This document shows, piece by piece, positions 46,951-64,000 of a stretch of DNA of 64,000 nt (position 1 is its first letter; every line of letters starts with the position of its first letter). The notes under the pieces are model-generated. The model saw only the letters and a program-made list of their open reading frames with translations. It did not search any database and was not told the origin of the DNA. The stretch comes from Polymyxa betae A26-41 (Eukaryota > Protista > Endomyxa: Phytomyxea). The stretch is taken from NCBI GenBank assembly GCA_003693705.1, contig RBZT01000553.1:17858-81857 (forward strand), in the 5' to 3' direction. The position numbers and the translations under genes were made by a program.

Positions 46951-47130
46951 GATCAGATATACACGCGACGTTAACCAGTTGCCTGGATGAGAAGCCTTGA
47001 CGGATATCAGGATTTACTGGGAAGGTGATGGCCACAATGCTGAAATAGCGCATTAGCCACAACAGGTTTGTTTAGCGGCGACCCGGATCTCGGAATCCAC
47101 AACTGGACAAATTCAAATATCTGTTCCGAA

Positions 47131-47660
47131 ATGAAGATCAAGCTAGTGCTCATGTTCCTGATTTGCCAAATATGCGAGATTAGAGGTCAAACGCCAGTCG
47201 CACCAGCAGCTGCACCTGCTCTCGGTCCATCTCCATGTATTGATGTTGCATGCTGAATATGGAGAAGAGTTGCTAACGCAGTTGCAGTTGCTGCTAGTTT
47301 CCTAGGAATGCTGCCGCCACCGCTTTGGACGTCAACACTAGGAGGGTATCCAGGGCCGGTCTGGAACCATTTCGGTGGTCAGTTGAGCTAATCAGCGAAA
47401 TTAAAAGTGTTCAGAATGATTCCAGGATCATACTTATTGCCACCACTAATACCGCCACAAATGGAAGGTTGGTATCCACGGGAACCTGGTTTCTTTCCTT
47501 GGTGATAAACGAATACAAGTCACCGAATTGGGCAGCATTACTGGCAACATTAGGCGGCACCACATACAATCTTTCTATTGTTTGTAGAAACAGCAAGAAG
47601 CTAAACGCTGAGGTGATGATATTTCAATTCGCCTTCAGAAAAAACGATGAAACTGTTTAA
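47131..47660 (+). CDS. Small putative secreted Pro/Ala-rich protein (exon structure uncertain)
   Basis: MKIKLVLMFLICQICEIRG looks like a signal peptide, followed by QTPVAPAAAPALGPSP; splice-like signals downstream. Confidence 0.45.
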
Positions 47661-49506
47661 ATCGCCTCTTGTCATCATTGGGATTATGCCTGACAAGCTT
47701 CAGATTGGGATTCAGAACACGTATACGGTCGTCGATGCGATCTGTTTGCAGCAAAAACCACGCACCTCCTAGAAATGGATTTGGGATGAGATTGAAATTC
47801 ACGAACTGACAATCCTGACCAATTTTTATCTCCAATAGCCCAGGAATATTCTTCGCAAGCACTGAAATCGATCTAAACCATTAATTAGAAAACTGATTAC
47901 GGGTGGTACAAAGACGATGAAGACATCATGCAATAAGAAAAATGTGACCAACTTGATAGAAAGCTTGATTAGAGAGCCAACATTCAAGAATTTCATAGGT
48001 AGAGAAAGATCTCCTAAGGATGCAAGCGAGTTATCATCAATATTTACACATTCCGAAATATCCAATGACATTAAGGAACGGAAGTGGCCCATTAAGACTT
48101 TGCACTGTTTCAGTGACCAGTAGCAATGCTGAAAATGGCCTCACCCGAAAGATACGGTCGCTTCGGGATTAAGCGACAATTATGCATATATAGCGATTTC
48201 AGTTCATGATGGGCAACGAATCCGTTTTCATCGATAAATGAATCGGAAATATCTATGCCATGCATAAGCATAATAGTTAGACCGAAAGAGAACGATCGAT
48301 ACCCAAAGTTTGTAGAACCTTGCAAGAGGTTAACAATCGCCGTAGGTGTGAGGAGCCAAACTGTTTCCCAGCTCCACGAACGTTCAGATACTGTAAGTGT
48401 TGAAAACGTTGAGAAATGAAGAGAACAGAACTGGCGTTGCTCCGAACATTGCTGATGTCAAGATAACGAAGATCTCGTAGCGAACTTAGCTGATTCTGTT
48501 CGACATCGGTATTACTTAAATCAACAAATTCGACCCTATTTGATGACGGAAGTCCATTTATCAAATCTGGGCCAAAATAACTGCCACCAGCGTCGATCAA
48601 ACGTAACGATGGAGCGCTGGTAAGACGGCCAGGCGATGAAGCAGAGGAACGACGATTTGCTTGATCAACGCGAAGGGAAACCAGAGATGGCAATTTTAGA
48701 AGATCGAAAACACCAGTATCAAATGTGCAACCAGTTAGATCAAGGTGAGCAACACCAGTAAAACGGGGCAGGTACAAGCTAAGCGTAATGCGAACACAGC
48801 CAGCCAACGATAGCCTCCGGATACTGGAAATCCCAGTCCCAATAAATGTGCATAAACGATCGATGACGAAATCGTTGTCGAAGGATTGCGAAACCGTTAG
48901 CGACTTGAACTTCGTTGCAGACAGTACTCTGGAAGTGGGTGGCAGCAGGATATCACGAAAGGCTTTGCAAACAAGGGGGAACACGAAAACGACTTCGGAA
49001 AGGTCGAAATATGACAGAGCGTCGGGTGTGAATACAACCGGGATGACATCAAGAAAATGACGTTGCGGAGAATAAACCGTTGGAGCTGCATGAATTCGCC
49101 GACGACGAGGATGGCGGCATTTGTAATTCCGAGTACAGATGAAGCAGAGCAGCTGAAAATTAGTTCGCTCGAGCTGTCGTGTTGTTCGCGGAAAGGCAGC
49201 CAATAGCCCGCACGATTGACAGACCGACGGCGGACCACAGTTCGCCCGATACTCCAAGCAGCGCCGACAAATCGACGCTCCAGCAAACGCAGCATTTAAG
49301 CAACAAAATTGGCATGGACGAGCAGGCCCTAATTTCAAATTTGAATAACATGCTGGACAGATATCATTGCCTGGCGATGCGGAATACAAATGCGTTTGGC
49401 AATGCTGGCATGTGACGCGAACCGGCCTGCAACGACATCTTTGACAGATGCTGCTCTCAGATGGCTCCGAGCAGGTCAAGCACAGCCTGATTGGCGCCGA
49501 TGCCAT
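47635..49506 (-). CDS. FAM76-like Cys-rich domain + F-box-like + leucine-rich repeat protein
   Basis: N-terminal CxxC array aligns with FAM76; LSYFDLSEV..PLVCKAFR is F-box-like; LRRs such as IRRLSLAGC, VAHLDLTGC, LRYLDISN and LMSLDISEC. Confidence 0.8.
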
Positions 49507-49625
49507 TTAAGAATGGAGACAGAAGACCAAGAAGGGAGACGTCAGCAGGCAGCAGGGGAGGGTCGCTGACTCCGAGTTCCGTAGTTACACGGCAGTCATG
49601 GATGTTACGTTACCGATGGCTGGCG

Positions 49626-49806
49626 ACTGTGTTTGGGCTCATTGGGTGGAACCTTGCAGTGCTGCTTCTGCTGCTGTATTTGGGCACATGGGGCGAATCC
49701 TTGGAGTGCTGACACTGCCGCTGTATTTGGGGCCATAGGGTGGAACCTTGGAGTGCTGATTCTTCCGCTGTATTTGGGGCCATGGGGTGAAACCTGAGAG
49801 TCCTGG
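49626..49806. repeat. 47-bp minisatellite, 4 copies, in divergent promoter
   Basis: Unit GCTGTATTTGGGGCCATxGGGTGGAACCTTGGAGTGCTGAxxCTxCC. Confidence 0.9.
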
Positions 49807-49872
49807 GTGTGACTCTATAGCAGTTTGATCACTATTGGTACGTTCTTGGTTCTATAGTCGGGCTGGCCGTTC

Positions 49873-51886
49873 ATGAACCAGCCAGGGTCGGAAGACGAGC
49901 TGGCGGCTGCTGAGGGCGGATTAAGATCAGAGGCTCCAGGCAGCCTTGCTAAACACGGTACTGAGAATGGTAGTGCCCTTTAACGTATTTCTGAAATCAT
50001 GCCAGCGACAATTTGGACTACAAAACAGGAAGGAGATAGCGAGCATTTCCAACTGATTGATAATGGACCTGGCTGCTTGTCTTGTAGGGTAGGGAATATG
50101 AATACCACCTCTCGCCTCCCTTACAATTAAACAGGTGTTTTCGAATGGTACGCCGGTTGATGTCAAATACAATGGCGAATGCTTGGACTGGAGACGATCT
50201 GGAAAAGGATGTTTGACCACTAACCTGCCATCGGAGTATGATGGCGAATGGGTTCATGGAAGACGCCATGGTTGTGGTATCCAGAAATACCCGAGTGCCA
50301 ATGTCTATGAAGGGCAATGGCTACACGATATGAAGTCGGGCATTGGCATCATGAAATGGATAGACCAACAACAGGTAGTCTAATGTATTACTACGATGTT
50401 GCTATCTAATTGGCATCCAAATACTTTCAGGTGTATGAAGGCGAATGGCAGTATGATATGCCAGATGGACTTGGAACTCAGGTTTGGTTCCATTCATGCC
50501 CAGGTTCTGATTAGCCAGTAGAAAATTAGCGATACTAAACTTGCTCAGGAATCGATCTGCGTACAATCAAATCACTCGCAGAGTTGCAGGGCCGTCTCCA
50601 TCTCTGCAATCGCTACCAGGGAGAGTTCAAGAATGGCCAACGTCAAGGTATAGAGTTTTGTTGGCTTTCCATGTTTTTCAGATTGGTTTAGGCCAGGGCG
50701 TTTTCTTTTATAGCAACGGAGCAGTTTACAAAGGCGGGTGGGCTCATAATCTGAAACATGGACCTGGGACATTCACCCATATCAACGGTCGAGTTATGAC
50801 CGGCGTCTGGGACAACGATATTCTTCGCTCGGATGTTGAACCTAAACACGACGTCGTTGATAAACACCCAACTTCATCACTCGACTTCTACGTTCAGTGC
50901 GAAGATTTGTTGCCAGTGCTGACGATGTCATCAACATTCTCTAATTCTGAAATGATCTCGAAGATTCTGTTACGTTATAATGGTATTTGGGTATCGTTTT
51001 ACTGCACGCTGCTTAGAAGTTACATAGACGATTTACGCCGAATATTTGAATTCTATGGTTTTGACGAGAAGCAAGCTGTGCCGCGCCTGAAATTGAGCAG
51101 TGTTTGGATCTGGTTTCGGGACTGCAATTTGCGATCAGGATGCCTATCGCGCGCTCAAATCGATGCCATGGCTCCAAATCGAGAGGTGACAGTACAAGTT
51201 TGAAACGAATTCTGCCTCATGACTGTTTAGCAAACGGAGTCACTACCAGCTCATGATGGAAATCGTATCATCTTTTTCCGAGAATGTCACGAGCTGCTAG
51301 TGCGAGTAAGCGCGACCGTATATGCTGAGCTTGCAGCCGACCGTCTATCCGACGCTTTAAATGCTCTCTTTCAGGAAATAATTCTACCTAGGTAAGCCAT
51401 CTTGTCATTGCTAAAAGTTTCAACCAAATTCTTTTAGGTTTAAGATATGTTCAGATTCGATCGCAAGCAATCGTGTTCGCAGCAGTCTAGATGTGATGGC
51501 TCGGATGGCTCCATTCGAAGGACCGCTACGCTCTGTTTTCGATCAGTTCAAAAATCACGCCACATCGACAATGCCATCCAGAACCTTGTTTCGTCTTTTG
51601 CAGAAAAACAATATTCCCTCAGATACCATTCTGACTTCGTTCAATGACACATATCGATGCGATTTGACGGATAATAACGAACTAGCTATAAAACCCGTTG
51701 AATTGGCCGCAGATGAGGTAAATATCCTACAATTTGCAGTATCGCCCTTACTTAGAATTCGATGAGATACTTCATGAGGAAATGGTGGAGATTGTAGGAC
51801 GATCAATAATGTCATTTCTACTTTTGACAAATACCGAGGCGGATCTTTCAATCTGGATACAGACATTCTGTAACGAGAATATGTAA
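49873..51886 (+). CDS. MORN-repeat protein, radial spoke head 10B-like
   Basis: Many MORN repeats (YDGEWVHGRRHGCG, YEGQWLHDMKSGIG, NRYQGEFKNGQRQG, YKGGWAHNLKHGPG), followed by an RSPH10B-like helical region (LRRIFEFY, IFFRECHELLVRV). Confidence 0.75.
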
Positions 51887-59524: not shown

Positions 59525-60167
59525 GGCTAAATCAGTCGTGGATTTCAGCTATTTAGACTCTACCATTGCACGACTCCCGTAGACCATTTATCTCCCCAAT
59601 ACAGCAGTTGATTTTGCAGAACTCTGCAACAGAACAGAGCGCGAGTCTGAGGGTGCAACCTAGAACAAAGCTTTACAGCACAACTGAACCAAAAAAATCT
59701 ACAATCTACATCATGATTCTGATACATCATCCAACGTGAATAAAAACATGTATATGAAAATGGTTTACACCTGTCCATTGATAGCAAAGAAGAGCAAGGA
59801 GCACCTCCAATGACGCGAATAAACCACCACCCAAAAAGGTCTACAATTCCCGAAATCACCAGAACAATGCACTCAAAGCGTTAACAAACTATAAACCCCC
59901 TCCAAAATTATACCGTAACAAAACTAATCATGGTGCAGCCATGATCAAAAACGAGGTCGGCACGAAAAGGAACTGCATGGACCTGATAGTGGTCCTAGAA
60001 AGACACGTAGAATTCGCCAAATTCCTCAATGACTTTGAAGTTATGGAGAATATTGAAGAATAGGGCAACGGGGATATTATCATAACAGACCTCAAACCTG
60101 ATAAAACATTTATGACATACTACCGACATAAAATCAAATTGAAATGAACAAGGATTGCCGTTCCGCT

Positions 60168-60661
60168 AATACTTTACTTGTTAGATTTAGGGATTCTGCT
60201 CAGTTTAATGCTTATGCTAATAACAATACAAATAAATCAGTTTACGCAAATTCTAATCCATTCACCAAGATTAGTTTAAAACATGTGTGGAATTACGTGC
60301 TGAACCATTAGTTGTTGATAATCAATATATGCTCGAAGAATTATTTAGAGTATATGGATTAAGAAATGATAATGATAATGGGTCTCTTGTTAAACGAAGT
60401 AATTACGCAAAAGTTGATGTTGCTGGAACAGAAGTTGCTTGGTCTTTAACATCTGGTTCTGGTCATTGCCCACAATATTATCTGGCGTTTGATTTAACTC
60501 TCAATGGTTTGAATTCTGGAATTGACCTTCTAAATGGTGGTTCATCGATATTTTCGACACAAGCAGACAATGCTACATCAAATCTTTACATTGACGCATT
60601 TTTAATTTACTCTGCTGTTTGTGTAGTAGAAGACAAGAATAATATGGAAGTAAAATACTGA
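60168..60661 (+). pseudogene. Double jelly-roll major capsid protein, C-terminal fragment (5'-truncated, frameshift ~60285)
   Basis: EPL...EELFRVYG...GSLV...YYLAFDL...SGIDL...IDAFLIYSAVCVV..MEVKY resembles PLV/virophage MCP C-termini; upstream TLLVRFR lies in another frame. Confidence 0.7.
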
Positions 60662-60719
60662 TTTATAACTATCAGATAGTATATAATAAAAATTATTTTT
60701 TCATTATTATTATATAATA

Positions 60720-61164
60720 ATGACTGAAACAAATGAAGAAATACCTAAAAAATCAAGTAAAAAAGCAGAAGCAAATAAGAAAAATTTAGAAAAGGCACGT
60801 CAATCCAGAAAAAAACGTGTATGAAGAAAGAAAACAATCTAAAAAAATTTTAGACAAAATCAAAGAAAAACACGATTTAAAAGAACTCATGAAAGAGCAA
60901 ACTGAACAAAGCGAAGAGCGCGTGGAAGTTCCAATTGAAGAACCAATAGAAACAAATGAAGAAGAGGAAGAAGTTATTATTGTAAAAAAAACTAAATCCA
61001 ATAAACAAAAGAAAAAGAAAAAAATAGTGTATGTATCGGCATCAAGTTCAGATGAAAGTGAAGAAGAGGAAGTCATTTATGTGAAACCCAAAAGGCAGAT
61101 TGATAAAATCAGAAACCAAAAACCGCAGCATCCTTTATATAAACCAATTTATGAATGGAATTAA
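60720..61164 (+). pseudogene. PLV-type Lys/Glu-rich hypothetical protein with frameshift ~60810-60820
   Basis: ATG 60720 MTETNEE..NLEKARQSRKK continues in the +1 frame to KKKKKIVYVSASSSDESEEEEVIYVKPKR. Confidence 0.6.
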
Positions 61165-61186
61165 TTTATTTATATTCTAAATAATA

Positions 61187-61969
61187 ATGAGTGATTACAA
61201 TTCAAACGATTATTTAGACCATGGAACTATCGGTCAAAACAGATATGACGGAAGAAAAAATAGGTTCGGCAAGGAAAGACATTATATATTTTCTGATAAA
61301 CCTCTGACAAATCCAAAAGTTCATATAAGAATGGTTGATACTGATGAATTAGTGAATGACGCTATTCTGAGTAGAATGGCAAACGTCACTGAGGATGGTG
61401 TTAGAATGAGAGATAATTATATATTGAATGAACCAATTGATATTAAACATTCAAATAATTCAGCAACCATTTATAAAGCACCGAAAAAAGATAAAAATGT
61501 AGTTATATATCACGATAATATCAATACAACACCAAAAGAACGATTAATTACTTGGAATGAATTGGAAAAACATCCAATTAATCCTGATAGGCGGTTGGAG
61601 ATACAACAAGCAATAAGTAAATTGAAACCAACGAAATCAAAAATAACAAACTCGATGGAATTTAGCAAGAAACAATATTTAAAAGAACATAAAGCGGTTT
61701 ATCCAAGAAAAGAAGCATACAAGAAAGAGAAAGATACTATGAGGGAAATATTAGATGACCGCTTGGTTCCAAGAGGAATTCATAATACCATAACTGATAT
61801 GTATAGTGAAATGAGAGTTGCTAATAGGAACCCACCAGGCAGAAAACCCATTGATAAAATAACAAATGACTTCGCGAATTTAGACCCAGATTCTCCTAAA
61901 AAGACCGAAGAAAATCAGCAAAAAGAGATAGCTCATTCGGAAAAAGGAATAAATAAGAAACTAAAATAA
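61187..61969 (+). CDS. Viral hypothetical protein (260 aa)
   Basis: Intact AT-rich ORF inside the viral block, AATAAT before ATG; no family recognised. Confidence 0.6.
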   Translation: MSDYNSNDYLDHGTIGQNRYDGRKNRFGKERHYIFSDKPLTNPKVHIRMVDTDELVNDAILSRMANVTEDGVRMRDNYILNEPIDIKHSNNSATIYKAPKKDKNVVIYHDNINTTPKERLITWNELEKHPINPDRRLEIQQAISKLKPTKSKITNSMEFSKKQYLKEHKAVYPRKEAYKKEKDTMREILDDRLVPRGIHNTITDMYSEMRVANRNPPGRKPIDKITNDFANLDPDSPKKTEENQQKEIAHSEKGINKKLK

Positions 61970-61994
61970 TTATTCATATAAGAATTATTTTAAT

Positions 61995-62705
61995 TTACAT
62001 TTCACGAATTACTTCATCGAAATTTCTCAATAGTCTATATTTTTTATGGTCAAATAAAAGAAAATTATATTTAACATTGGTTACTTCATCAAATATTTTT
62101 TCAAACTGCTCCGGTTCTAACCATCCACAATTTTCCTCTACAATTGCCTTTTTCTCCTTGTTATTCATGGGTTTGAAAAAGTATTTATACATTGCTAAAT
62201 CTCTGATTGAACTTGGGATTTACTTGTATCTCTGACTTAAAATCAAAACCGAAATATTACTATGACGCCCACGTGTGAATAACGATAAAATACTGCTTCT
62301 TTTTTTATTAAAGATATTATTATCAATAAAGTCTTCAAAAATAATCAAGATTGGTTCTAATTTCTGTCCATATTTTCTTAATTTTTGCTGATACTTGATT
62401 AACTCTGCTATGACATCCTTACCATCATCATCATAAATATCATGGAGCAGTGTAGCATCTAAATCATCTACCAGTTTTAATAAGGTTCCATTGATAGTGC
62501 TGGAGATTATATAGATATTGTTCTTAAAATAGCGTTTATGTTCATGACATATATTACAAGTCAATAGGGTTTTCCCACTGCTTCCCACTCCGACTAGAAT
62601 ACCATAAGACGGCCATATTTGAAAGTTAGGATGAAGGCAATATGTGGCGTCTGGCACATCGTATTTTGTCAGAACCTTTAAATTAATCTTCTTTTTCTTA
62701 GTCAT
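61995..62705 (-). pseudogene. A32-like (FtsK/HerA) genome packaging ATPase with one in-frame stop
   Basis: Walker A GVGSSGKT, IYIIS, Walker B LIIFED, LFTRGRHSNISVLILSQRY, then TAA at 62220-62222 followed in frame by IPSSIR..YNFLLFD..RNFD. Confidence 0.9.
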
Positions 62706-62750
62706 ATTAATATAACATGCGATTTTATTTATCTTGTATTAATAATAAAC

Positions 62751-63479
62751 ATGGAGTCAATTCCCTTTTACATAAATAGTAAGAAAAGAGAAAGTGGTTC
62801 TCTTGACAATTCAGACTTTTACTATAATTTCGTGTATAAAGCAAATGAGAATGCCGAAAATATGCTTAACATTGATATGCTTTCCATTCCTAAGTCCTAT
62901 TTCCCAGTCAATGACTACAATAATACTTTTCAATTGGGCATTACAAGCGTCGGCGTTACATCTGTCGTGTTAACTAATGGTGATTATACCGAGGCAGAAT
63001 TGATAAACCACATCACAAGTAATAGCGCCATGCCTATCGGCGTGTCCATGACATATTCCTCTATCTCAAAGAGATTTTCATATTTAGGTATGACTGGCAC
63101 TAATCTAATCACCAATGAAAAGCAGAAATATTTAGGGTTCAATTCGGCTGGGGTATGGCAACCAGATGTGAACGGCGTCATTGTCTCTAATGATGCGGTA
63201 GATATATCTGGAACGAATAGCATTAATGTCTTAACCGATATTGATATTGAGACATACAATAACTCCAACAAAAATAGTTATATGTTGCTCTCTGTATTCC
63301 CCAATGTTGATGCCAATGGATTTATAACATATACCTCTTCCAATTTTAGAAGCATCAAACTCAAAAATGATAAGTTGAATTTACAGAGATTTCAACTCGT
63401 GGACGAGAACCTTGACCCTCTTGATTTAAATGGACTATCATGGGACCTAAATCTCTCCCTTACATATAAGAACCAGTGA
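62751..63479 (+). CDS. Minor capsid (penton, single jelly-roll) protein
   Basis: FYINSKKR, IPKSYFPVNDYNNTF, GDYT, LGF and C-terminal FQLVDENLDPLDLNGLSWDLNL, typical of PLV/virophage-related pentons. Confidence 0.82.
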   Translation: MESIPFYINSKKRESGSLDNSDFYYNFVYKANENAENMLNIDMLSIPKSYFPVNDYNNTFQLGITSVGVTSVVLTNGDYTEAELINHITSNSAMPIGVSMTYSSISKRFSYLGMTGTNLITNEKQKYLGFNSAGVWQPDVNGVIVSNDAVDISGTNSINVLTDIDIETYNNSNKNSYMLLSVFPNVDANGFITYTSSNFRSIKLKNDKLNLQRFQLVDENLDPLDLNGLSWDLNLSLTYKNQ

Positions 63480-63528
63480 GAATTCAATCATCGTCTTTAT
63501 TGAGAAATTAATATATACCATAATATTA

Positions 63529-63759
63529 ATGTTTGGTTATTGTGATTTAGAACAATGCTTAAATCAAAAAAGTGATGTAAAGGTGTTAATTCACGAAAGC
63601 AATTTATGGCACGTAAGACATCACGATGGAAGAGAAAGATTAATTTGTAATGACTGCTTGATAATATGGAAAGCAGAAAGTAAAAAGTTAAGAGAAGAGG
63701 AGAAATTGAGGAAGAACCAGTGGGAAATCAGAAAGAAAAAGGAAATTGTAAACTTATAA
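63529..63759 (+). CDS. Small viral protein with putative zinc-binding Cys pairs
   Basis: CDLEQC...CNDC plus basic tail; AT-rich leader like its neighbours. Confidence 0.45.
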   Translation: MFGYCDLEQCLNQKSDVKVLIHESNLWHVRHHDGRERLICNDCLIIWKAESKKLREEEKLRKNQWEIRKKKEIVNL

Positions 63760-64000
63760 GATAAATTCATGATGTAAATCATTAGATTATGAATTTTCAG
63801 AAGTCATTACAATACCGAAATCTAGGCGAATATTTCTGATTGAATGAGGGGGACGTTAGAGACATATGTCTCAGAGCTGAGCACCCCAATTCTACAGCAC
63901 GACTTAAACTTTTCAATTCAACCAGAAAGGGATTCGCCTAGATTCAGTAGTTTGATATGACAAGTTCAGTGACAACGACGACTCCACGACGAAGATTACG

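What the first reader, a model, noticed from the sequence alone, without database searches (positions are those of the whole stretch)
47635..49506. FAM76-like zinc domain fused to F-box-like and LRR regions
Seen: the first ~128 aa (CQRCR..VTCQHCQT..ICPACYSNLKLGPARPCQFCCLNAAF..CRRC..GPPSVCQSCGLLAAF..LLCFICTRNYK) track the animal FAM76A/B N-terminus motif by motif. An F-box-like segment and LRRs follow in the same ORF. Known: FAM76 proteins normally end in a coiled coil and their function is poorly understood. Inference: a possibly undescribed SCF substrate adaptor that links FAM76 to ubiquitination.
Basis: partly seen in the sequence, partly recalled or inferred. Interest (0 to 1): 0.7.

Follow-up and report, generated by a model that had tools for sequence, protein, structure and literature searches.

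The report
FAM76–F-box–LRR fusion in plasmodiophorid protists
A five-exon gene, likely from a relative of the clubroot parasite, joins the cysteine-rich, probably zinc-binding head of the little-understood FAM76 proteins to a divergent F-box-like segment and leucine-rich repeats; the clubroot parasite has the same layout, and the protein is predicted, not shown, to be a nuclear ubiquitin-ligase adaptor.

Summary
The fusion is real. The gene lies on the minus strand (49506-47635), has five exons and encodes 547 aa; spliced contigs from two studies skip its four GT-AG introns. The FAM76 head, the F-box-like segment and the first LRRs share exon 1. The head hits Pfam FAM76 (E 4e-18) and keeps all 16 family cysteines; the FAM76 coiled-coil tail is absent. 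A full-length ortholog (36% identity) is Plasmodiophora brassicae PBRA_006453, already labelled 'F-box domain-containing protein'; none of the other 106 FAM76-domain hits scanned showed an LRR or F-box (40 are short fragments). The F-box is under Pfam's cut-off in both species, but its LP...PLVC(K/R)AFR core is conserved, and a model with a stand-in SKP1 passed (0.79, best control 0.55; may come from memory of solved pairs). Best reading: a plasmodiophorid FBXL-type SCF receptor whose basic zinc module likely targets it to nuclear RNA or protein complexes. Main rival: a SKP1-bound, non-ligase recruiter like FBXL19. My searches found no paper describing the layout, and this scan had not noted it on other DNA. 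A link of animal FAM76 to ubiquitination is not shown.

The parts
47635..49506 (-). Whole gene, start codon to stop codon; 5 exons, 547 aa
   Evidence: Splice joints in contigs of 4 runs from 2 studies; translation; 36% identity over 576 columns to P. brassicae P0154, E 6e-118
48303..49506 (-). Exon 1 (aa 1-401): FAM76 head, basic patch, F-box-like segment, first LRRs
   Evidence: No stop in frame; single contig pieces cover 48303-49540 and 48303-49633 without a joint
49114..49482 (-). FAM76-type cysteine-rich domain (aa 9-131), 8 CxxC pairs, likely up to four zinc sites
   Evidence: Pfam PF16046 E 4.1e-18; 16 of 16 Cys match family majority; model pLDDT 91.6; 50% identical to P. brassicae. 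Zinc binding is inferred
49096..49122 (-). Basic patch KCRHPRRRR (aa 129-137), candidate nuclear localisation signal
   Evidence: Sequence; ortholog has KRRKHDDAVKRRR at the same place; function inferred
48943..49065 (-). Divergent F-box-like segment (aa 148-188)
   Evidence: PF00646 E 0.078, under cut-off; ortholog segment PF12937 E 0.0017 and PF00646 E 0.0035, under cut-off; modelled SKP1 interface at aa 148-184
47820..48909 (-). Leucine-rich repeat region (aa about 200-503), running over exons 1-4
   Evidence: LRR_4 27.0 bits; LRR solenoid in model and fold search of aa 1-401; 34% identical to ortholog
48253..48302 (-). Intron 1, 50 nt, GT-AG
   Evidence: Skipped in contigs of 4 of 4 runs
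48145..48252 (-). Exon 2
48098..48144 (-). Intron 2, 47 nt, GT-AG
   Evidence: Skipped in 4 of 4 runs
47953..48097 (-). Exon 3
47873..47952 (-). Intron 3, 80 nt, GT-AG
   Evidence: Skipped in 4 of 4 runs
47820..47872 (-). Exon 4
47769..47819 (-). Intron 4, 51 nt, GT-AG
   Evidence: Skipped in 4 of 4 runs
47635..47768 (-). Exon 5, coding part: conserved C-terminal cap (aa 505-547) and stop codon
   Evidence: 50% identical to the P. brassicae C-terminus

Best explanation
The gene encodes one protein that joins a FAM76-type cysteine-rich head to an F-box-like segment and leucine-rich repeats, and it likely works as a nuclear substrate receptor of an SCF (SKP1-cullin-F-box) ubiquitin ligase in plasmodiophorid protists. 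Steps: (1) shown: one spliced gene, conserved at full length in P. brassicae; (2) predicted: aa 148-184 dock on the C-terminal helices of SKP1; (3) inferred from the FBXL class: SKP1 bridges to cullin-1 and RBX1, and the LRR solenoid holds a protein substrate for ubiquitination; (4) inferred: the basic patch imports it into the nucleus; (5) inferred, weakest: the basic zinc module (net +15) binds RNA or an RNA-binding protein, as reported for whole human FAM76B, and so selects where or on which complex the ligase acts. The F-box/LRR part took the place of the coiled-coil tail of ordinary FAM76 proteins, likely in a plasmodiophorid ancestor.
For: One frame and one exon for head, F-box and first LRRs. 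Ortholog 36% identical end to end; head 50%, F-box 37%, LRR 34%, C-terminal cap 50%, so all parts are kept. F-box core L152, P156, D168-L169, P177-L178-V179-C180-K/R181-A-F-R184 is conserved in both species; the proline after the first leucine is the position that PMC5029927 (passages) calls the conserved F-box proline. Ortholog segment hits two F-box models at E 0.002-0.004 and is named F-box protein by NCBI/UniRef. Complex model with a stand-in SKP1: score 0.79, best of 3 controls 0.55, runs agree in at least 85% of contacts, partner pLDDT at least 78; the mark was reached by 51 of 78 solved complexes and 2 of 108 mismatched pairs (on eukaryotes 71 of 105 solved, 2 of 126 unrelated); best contacts are aa 166 and 175-181 against SKP1 aa 134-158. 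This shows likeness to solved SKP1-F-box pairs, not binding. Atlas neighbours are F-box/LRR clusters at 0.87, a lead only. Whole human FAM76B is nuclear, co-precipitates hnRNPA2B1 (PMC10446823, passages) and pulls down mRNA (PMC10904503, passages). A nuclear F-box/LRR protein of another SAR protist, Toxoplasma FBXL2, is engaged in an SCF complex (PMC11166348, passages).
Against: The F-box is under Pfam's cut-off in both species (13.4 and 17.6 bits against 20.5; 18.5 against 24.3), and a 66-aa cut of the window's segment hit nothing. The single-chain model has pLDDT under 50 over most of aa 139-182 and draws a strand at 173-176; the alignment held only three sequences there. The acidic residues after the proline in the recalled consensus (LPxE) are absent in both species (IPVV, LPYH). 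Predicted interface residues are no better conserved than their neighbours (9 of 27 against 6 of 16 identical). The control that kept the F-box chain and replaced SKP1 scored 0.55, so the segment is sticky in this model; SKP1 was a stand-in from another organism and the alignments were not used. The fold search ranks non-F-box LRR proteins (NLRPs, TLR9) as high as SKP2 or COI1 entries. In the passages read, neither FAM76B paper maps RNA or protein binding to the cysteine-rich head. Cullin binding, substrate and location are untested.
Confidence: 0.55

Rival explanations
1. SKP1-bound recruiter, not a ligase. The zinc head would bind a nucleic acid or chromatin site, and the SKP1-stabilised F-box/LRR would bring in a partner complex without degrading it, as FBXL19 does with CDK-Mediator and KDM2B with PRC1.
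For: Same order of parts (zinc module, F-box, LRR) as FBXL19/KDM2; FBXL19 purifications held SKP1 but not CUL1 or RBX1 (PMC5997449, passages). Missing acidic residues after the F-box proline in both species. Head and C-terminal cap are better conserved (50%) than the LRRs (34%). Basic head and basic patch.
Against: The F-box proline is kept; its tie to cullin assembly is recalled from Schmidt et al. 2009, seen only as a reference-list entry. The head is not a ZF-CxxC or PHD domain by Pfam. FBXL19 itself is also reported as an SCF receptor (titles in the reference list of PMC5997449), so the two modes are not exclusive.
Confidence: 0.25
2. Degenerate F-box. The segment would be a structural cap of the LRR solenoid that no longer binds SKP1, and the protein a FAM76-type nuclear factor that uses LRRs in place of a coiled coil for partner binding.
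For: Sub-threshold Pfam scores; low single-chain confidence; no excess conservation of predicted interface residues; high control score 0.55.
Against: The block PLVC(K/R)AFR is 7 of 8 identical between the species while flanking 20-aa blocks at 201-240 keep only 3 and 4 of 20; the model places exactly this block in the SKP1 groove with the least error.
Confidence: 0.12
3. Host-directed effector. The protein would be delivered to plant cells and use plant SKP1 (ASK1) to degrade host targets, like F-box/LRR effectors of plant-pathogenic bacteria (recalled).
For: The organism is likely an intracellular plant parasite (ortholog in P. brassicae); ubiquitin-system proteins are among P. brassicae's predicted secreted candidates (PMC8595600, passages).
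Against: The N-terminus starts directly with the cysteine-rich domain and has no strongly hydrophobic stretch (best 11-residue hydropathy 1.19 and 0.85; a crude test). Full-length conservation and shared intron sites fit a housekeeping gene. None of five identifiers of the ortholog is in any full text searched (supplements not searched).
Confidence: 0.05
4. Artefact: a chance join of two genes by assembly or prediction.
For: One contig of one run (X6) has a loose end at 48601 that matches another part of the window.
Against: One uninterrupted frame; contigs from two studies cover the junctions without differences; independent P. brassicae assemblies encode the same fusion.
Confidence: 0.02

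Closest known systems
Plasmodiophora brassicae PBRA_006453 (CEO98339.1, SPQ94423.1, XXQ31245.1; UniRef A0A0G4IT66), 'F-box domain-containing protein', 573 aa
   Same: Ortholog: same order of domains, 36% identity end to end; an intron-retaining gene call of it (P0001) departs from the spliced form at the places of the window's introns 1 and 2
   Different: A database record only; no paper naming it was found. Its F-box is closer to the consensus than the window's
FAM76A/FAM76B family (Pfam PF16046)
   Same: N-terminal domain with 8 CxxC pairs, AAF motifs and similar net charge; the Atlas's model of the ortholog's first 230 aa is nearest to a FAM76A cluster, TM 0.56
   Different: Only profile positions 19-134 of 298 match; no coiled-coil tail and no poly-His tract; F-box and LRRs instead
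FBXL-class SCF receptors (SKP2/FBXL1, FBXL17, TIR1/COI1, Toxoplasma FBXL2)
   Same: F-box followed by an LRR solenoid; entries with these proteins are among the fold matches; modelled SKP1 interface
   Different: Extra N-terminal FAM76 zinc module; F-box under the Pfam cut-off; no substrate known
FBXL19 / KDM2A / KDM2B (ZF-CxxC, PHD, F-box, LRR)
   Same: Zinc module placed before F-box and LRR in a nuclear protein that binds SKP1 (PMC5997449, passages)
   Different: The zinc module is of another family (FAM76; no ZF-CxxC, PHD or JmjC hit): an analogy, not homology
Drosophila Morgue (C4 zinc finger, F-box, UEV)
   Same: Zinc finger before an F-box in a lineage-restricted protein that binds SkpA (PMC3787007, passages)
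   Different: One 20-aa C4 finger instead of 8 CxxC pairs; UEV domain instead of LRRs

Membership tests
FAM76 (PF16046) | N-terminal cysteine-rich domain with 8 CxxC pairs; Pfam score above cut-off | tested here: met
   66.3 bits against 28.5; 16 of 16 Cys
FAM76 (PF16046) | C-terminal coiled-coil half of the profile | tested here: not met
   Match ends at profile position 134-142 of 298 in both species; the rest is F-box-like and LRR. It carries a FAM76 domain but is not a whole FAM76 protein
FAM76 (PF16046) | Zinc binding by the CxxC pairs | not testable with these tools
   Inferred from cysteine spacing; the model has no metals
F-box proteins | F-box profile score at or above Pfam cut-off | tested here: not met
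   13.4 bits (window), 17.6 and 18.5 bits (ortholog segment) against 20.5 and 24.3
F-box proteins | Core motif L-P ... V-C-K/R with F-box spacing (consensus recalled; position supported by the sub-threshold profile alignments) | tested here: met
   L152, P156, P177-L-V-C-K/R-A-F-R184 conserved in both species; acidic residues after the proline absent
F-box proteins | Binds SKP1 | tested here: inconclusive
   Model passes (0.79; best control 0.55; 51 of 78 solved and 2 of 108 mismatched pairs reach the mark) with a stand-in SKP1; a like complex is solved, so the pass may be from memory
F-box proteins (SCF receptors) | Assembles with cullin-1 and RBX1 and ubiquitinates a substrate | not testable with these tools
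   Needs biochemistry
FBXL class | LRR solenoid C-terminal to the F-box | tested here: met
   LRR_4 at cut-off in the window, three LRR models above cut-off in the ortholog, LRR fold matches
KDM2/FBXL19 | ZF-CxxC DNA-binding domain and PHD finger | tested here: not met
   No such Pfam hit at E up to 1 or 10
Morgue | C-terminal UEV domain | tested here: not met
   None in the full-length ortholog; the window's C-terminus aligns to it end to end
Secreted plasmodiophorid effectors | N-terminal signal peptide | tested here: inconclusive
   Crude hydropathy shows no strong hydrophobic stretch in the first 40 aa; no signal-peptide predictor was available

The most novel reading that the evidence does not exclude
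The FAM76 zinc domain is an RNA- or RNP-reading module, and this fusion is an RNA-guided SCF ligase that ubiquitinates proteins on chosen transcripts in the parasite's nucleus; it is a 'Rosetta stone' showing that animal FAM76A/B do the same job by recruiting a separate F-box/LRR protein through their coiled coil.
Probability: 0.1. Interest if true: 0.78.

Novelty: new variant of a known kind. Interest (0 to 1): 0.45.

Why it matters
FAM76 proteins occur in animals and in several protist lines, yet a 2026 paper still calls their function largely unknown (PMC13662394, passages), and no solved structure resembles the head domain in my searches. Here the head stands as a mobile module, kept better than the LRRs beside it and joined to a ubiquitin-system adaptor. 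That marks the domain's boundaries, suggests it is a targeting module, and gives a concrete question for human FAM76A/B (do they meet SKP1 or an FBXL protein?). It also names a conserved, apparently lineage-restricted regulator in crop parasites. The value is limited because only two related species show it, F-box proteins often pick up extra domains in protists, and no function is shown.

Tried and rejected
Word-index protein searches with the window's ORF (0 of 5261 candidates) and its zinc region (0 of 146) found nothing; the ortholog came from the full HMMER scan and a profile search (2 of 7996 candidates, both the same P. brassicae gene). All three searches covered only proteins of about 220-950 aa. 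Two scans of metagenome contigs found no relative; a viral-contig scan with the wide alignment could not be run. No whole genome is held, so I could not test whether this organism also has an ordinary coiled-coil FAM76, nor get its own SKP1 or cullin. Ten single-exon ORFs of the window are not in the protein collection by exact look-up, so the species was not fixed. No run holding the stretch is on record as RNA; four raw-read RNA runs laid no read, which is no test. Solved-structure searches by sequence gave only weak LRR hits and coiled-coil hits from the tails of the aligned FAM76 proteins. For the zinc domain alone, Foldseek gave no match at E up to 0.001 and the wide structural search a best Z of 2.7 over 38 residues, rmsd 2.1; this shows neither a known nor a new fold. 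The wide structural search of the 401-aa model was not run. The careful tree did not finish; the quick tree (58 of 120 rows kept, those of at least 105 aa with at least 7 CxxC, near-copies dropped) joins the two fusion heads at 97 but warns of long branches, so the origin of the head is not resolved. The profile comparison is circular (the window's sequence is on both sides) and is not used. Alternative splice models were dropped once contigs showed the joints. Paper searches for FAM76 + zinc finger + F-box (10 papers, none on such a fusion by title and abstract start), FAM76 + Plasmodiophora (0), five identifiers of the ortholog (0) and P. brassicae + F-box + SKP1 (15 of 18 listed) found no description; subscription papers and supplements were not searched, and expression tables in supplements may list PBRA_006453.

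Full report
Observation. Pfam gives FAM76 (PF16046) for aa 17-131 at E 4.1e-18, 66.3 bits against a cut-off of 28.5, over profile positions 19-134 of 298; LRR_4 at 27.0 bits, equal to its cut-off; and F-box PF00646 only at E 0.078, 13.4 bits against 20.5, for a 49-aa cut, with nothing for a 66-aa cut. All 16 cysteines of the eight CxxC pairs, both AAF motifs and the G-x-P turns before two pairs agree with the majority of 67 aligned relatives.

Gene model. Contigs of four public runs (at most three samples, two studies) match the region with no differences and skip four GT-AG introns of 50, 47, 80 and 51 nt in 4 of 4 runs. These runs are not on record as RNA; I infer that they are spliced RNA because they also skip introns of both neighbouring genes and leave 49691-49807 uncovered. 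One 2025-nt contig spans 47288-49540. Head, F-box-like segment and the first LRRs all lie in exon 1, so the fusion is in the DNA frame itself.

Relatives. A HMMER scan of 1.84 billion cluster representatives gave 150 hits at E up to 0.001, one far ahead: P0001, 546 aa, E 1.4e-48. A profile of P0001 with the window's exon 1 found P0154, which is Plasmodiophora brassicae PBRA_006453 (CEO98339.1, SPQ94423.1, XXQ31245.1, UniRef A0A0G4IT66), named 'F-box domain-containing protein'; P0001 is an intron-retaining call of the same gene. The spliced window protein aligns to P0154 end to end (209 of 576 columns identical, E 6e-118): head 50%, linker 26%, F-box 37%, LRRs 34%, C-terminal cap 50%. Of the 150 hits, 107 match through the head; all 107 hit FAM76 and only P0001 also hits LRR models at E up to 0.01, none an F-box model. 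Of the other 106, 66 have at least 100 aa behind the head and 40 are too short to tell; none of the 43 LRR-side hits has a FAM76 head. So the layout is rare in what I could search, and seen in two species only. Named FAM76 hits include animals, Babesia divergens, Barthelona and the choanoflagellate Didymoeca, so the family is not animal-only. A quick tree joins the two fusion heads (SH-aLRT 97) on a long branch within a weakly held group that includes Babesia and Barthelona; this fits descent within protists but does not prove it.

Organism. GC is 46% over the first 59.5 kb, genes are dense and introns short. PMC6328671 (main text read) gives 45.1% for Polymyxa betae, 45.7% for Spongospora subterranea and 58.5% for P. 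brassicae. With a P. brassicae ortholog as the only full-length relative, the window likely comes from a plasmodiophorid other than P. brassicae; the species is not determined. Neighbours are ordinary genes: a P4-type ATPase, a MORN-repeat protein, and further off a GTPase, lipase, Cwc21, M16 peptidase and SARAF.

Is the F-box real? Against: it is under Pfam's cut-off in both species (ortholog segment 18.5 bits for PF12937, E 0.0017; 17.6 bits for PF00646, E 0.0035); the single-chain model is unsure there (pLDDT under 50 over most of aa 139-182, with only three sequences covering it); the acidic residues after the proline in the recalled consensus are missing; and predicted interface residues are no better conserved than their neighbours (9 of 27 against 6 of 16). 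For: L152, P156, D168-L169 and P177-L-V-C-K/R-A-F-R184 are shared by both species; Atlas neighbours are F-box/LRR clusters at 0.87, a lead only; and a complex model of aa 143-285 with a SKP1 from a giant-virus bin contig (L001; both Skp1 Pfam models above cut-off) scored 0.79 against a best control of 0.55, with at least 85% of contacts shared between runs and partner pLDDT at least 78. That mark was reached by 51 of 78 solved complexes and 2 of 108 mismatched pairs (eukaryotes: 71 of 105 and 2 of 126). The contacts lie at aa 148-184 against SKP1's C-terminal helices, the known F-box site (recalled). SKP1-F-box pairs are solved, so the pass may be from memory; the SKP1 is a stand-in; and the 0.55 control shows that the segment is sticky. 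I take SKP1 binding as likely (about 0.8), not shown.

Folds. The model of aa 1-401 has a confident head (pLDDT 94-98 over most of aa 31-130) and an LRR solenoid. Foldseek returns LRR proteins of many kinds, among them entries with SKP2, COI1, FBXL17, TIR1 and D3/MAX2, but NLRPs and TLR9 rank as high. The head alone models well (mean pLDDT 91.6, pTM 0.75); the Atlas's model of the ortholog's first 230 aa is nearest to a FAM76A cluster (TM 0.56). The head is basic: net +15, against +17 in P. brassicae and +16 in a bird FAM76A, and is followed by a basic patch in both species.

Mechanism. The best reading is an FBXL-type SCF receptor with an added targeting module: F-box on SKP1 (predicted), LRRs on substrate and cullin-RBX1 ligase activity (inferred from the class), nuclear import by the basic patch (inferred), and a zinc head that binds RNA or an RNA-binding protein (inferred from whole human FAM76B, which co-precipitates hnRNPA2B1 in PMC10446823 and pulls down PIK3CD mRNA in PMC10904503; passages read, neither mapping the activity to the head). 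The main rival is a SKP1-bound recruiter: FBXL19 has a zinc module, F-box and LRRs, binds SKP1, and showed no CUL1 or RBX1 in purifications (PMC5997449, passages). A dead F-box, a secreted effector and an artefact are less likely.

Novelty. Zinc-module-plus-F-box proteins are known (FBXL19/KDM2; Morgue, PMC3787007, passages), so this is a new variant of a known kind. The FAM76-F-box-LRR layout is in databases as one automatically named P. brassicae record, and I found no paper on it (open-licence library only, supplements not searched; one search listed 25 of 213, none with FAM76). This scan's notes hold no look-alike sequence and no finding with the word FAM76, but several other odd-domain F-box/LRR fusions in protists and algae (unchecked notes), which suggests that such shuffling is common. 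It earns moderate interest as a clean, conserved fusion that isolates a poorly understood domain; the step to animal FAM76 function is speculation.

Noticed in passing
window about 59750-64000: GC falls from 0.43-0.49 to 0.28-0.37. Intron-free ORFs: 62220-62738 (-) hits Pox_A32 packaging ATPase, E 5e-7, above cut-off; 62751-63479 (+) and 61187-61969 (+) hit no Pfam family; 60100-60660 (+) holds frame-broken pieces. The set recalls an endogenous Polinton-like virus or virophage of the protist (capsid and penton labels are recalled resemblances, untested). No close relative in viral contigs by one scan with the ATPase.
   Followed up: partly
window 48601 and 61372: One contig of run X6 joins the LRR part of this gene to 188 letters whose consensus matches the virus-like ORF at 61372. 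A single contig, likely a chimera, but it shows that the element's sequence is in a run made of spliced contigs, so it may be transcribed.
   Followed up: partly
window 47000-47767: Contigs run on past this gene's stop codon into a plus-strand neighbour with its own GT-AG intron (47237-47287), so the 3' ends of the two convergent genes may overlap.
   Followed up: no
window 49830-51203 (+): Divergent neighbour about 320 bases upstream of the start codon: a spliced MORN-repeat gene; the short gap may hold a shared promoter.
   Followed up: no
window 49660-49800: Three imperfect copies of a motif like CTGTATTTGGG(G)CCAT(A/G)GG in the gap between the two divergent genes.
   Followed up: no
P0013 and its cluster: A 307-aa FAM76 protein known only from metagenome records, six members, on contigs up to 25 kb; its host is unknown and could be a protist or a giant virus.
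   Followed up: no
L001-L009: Nine viral-collection contigs carry SKP1 genes; three contigs of 1.8-2.0 Mb (L005, L006, L009) have SKP1 frames broken by what look like introns.
   Followed up: no
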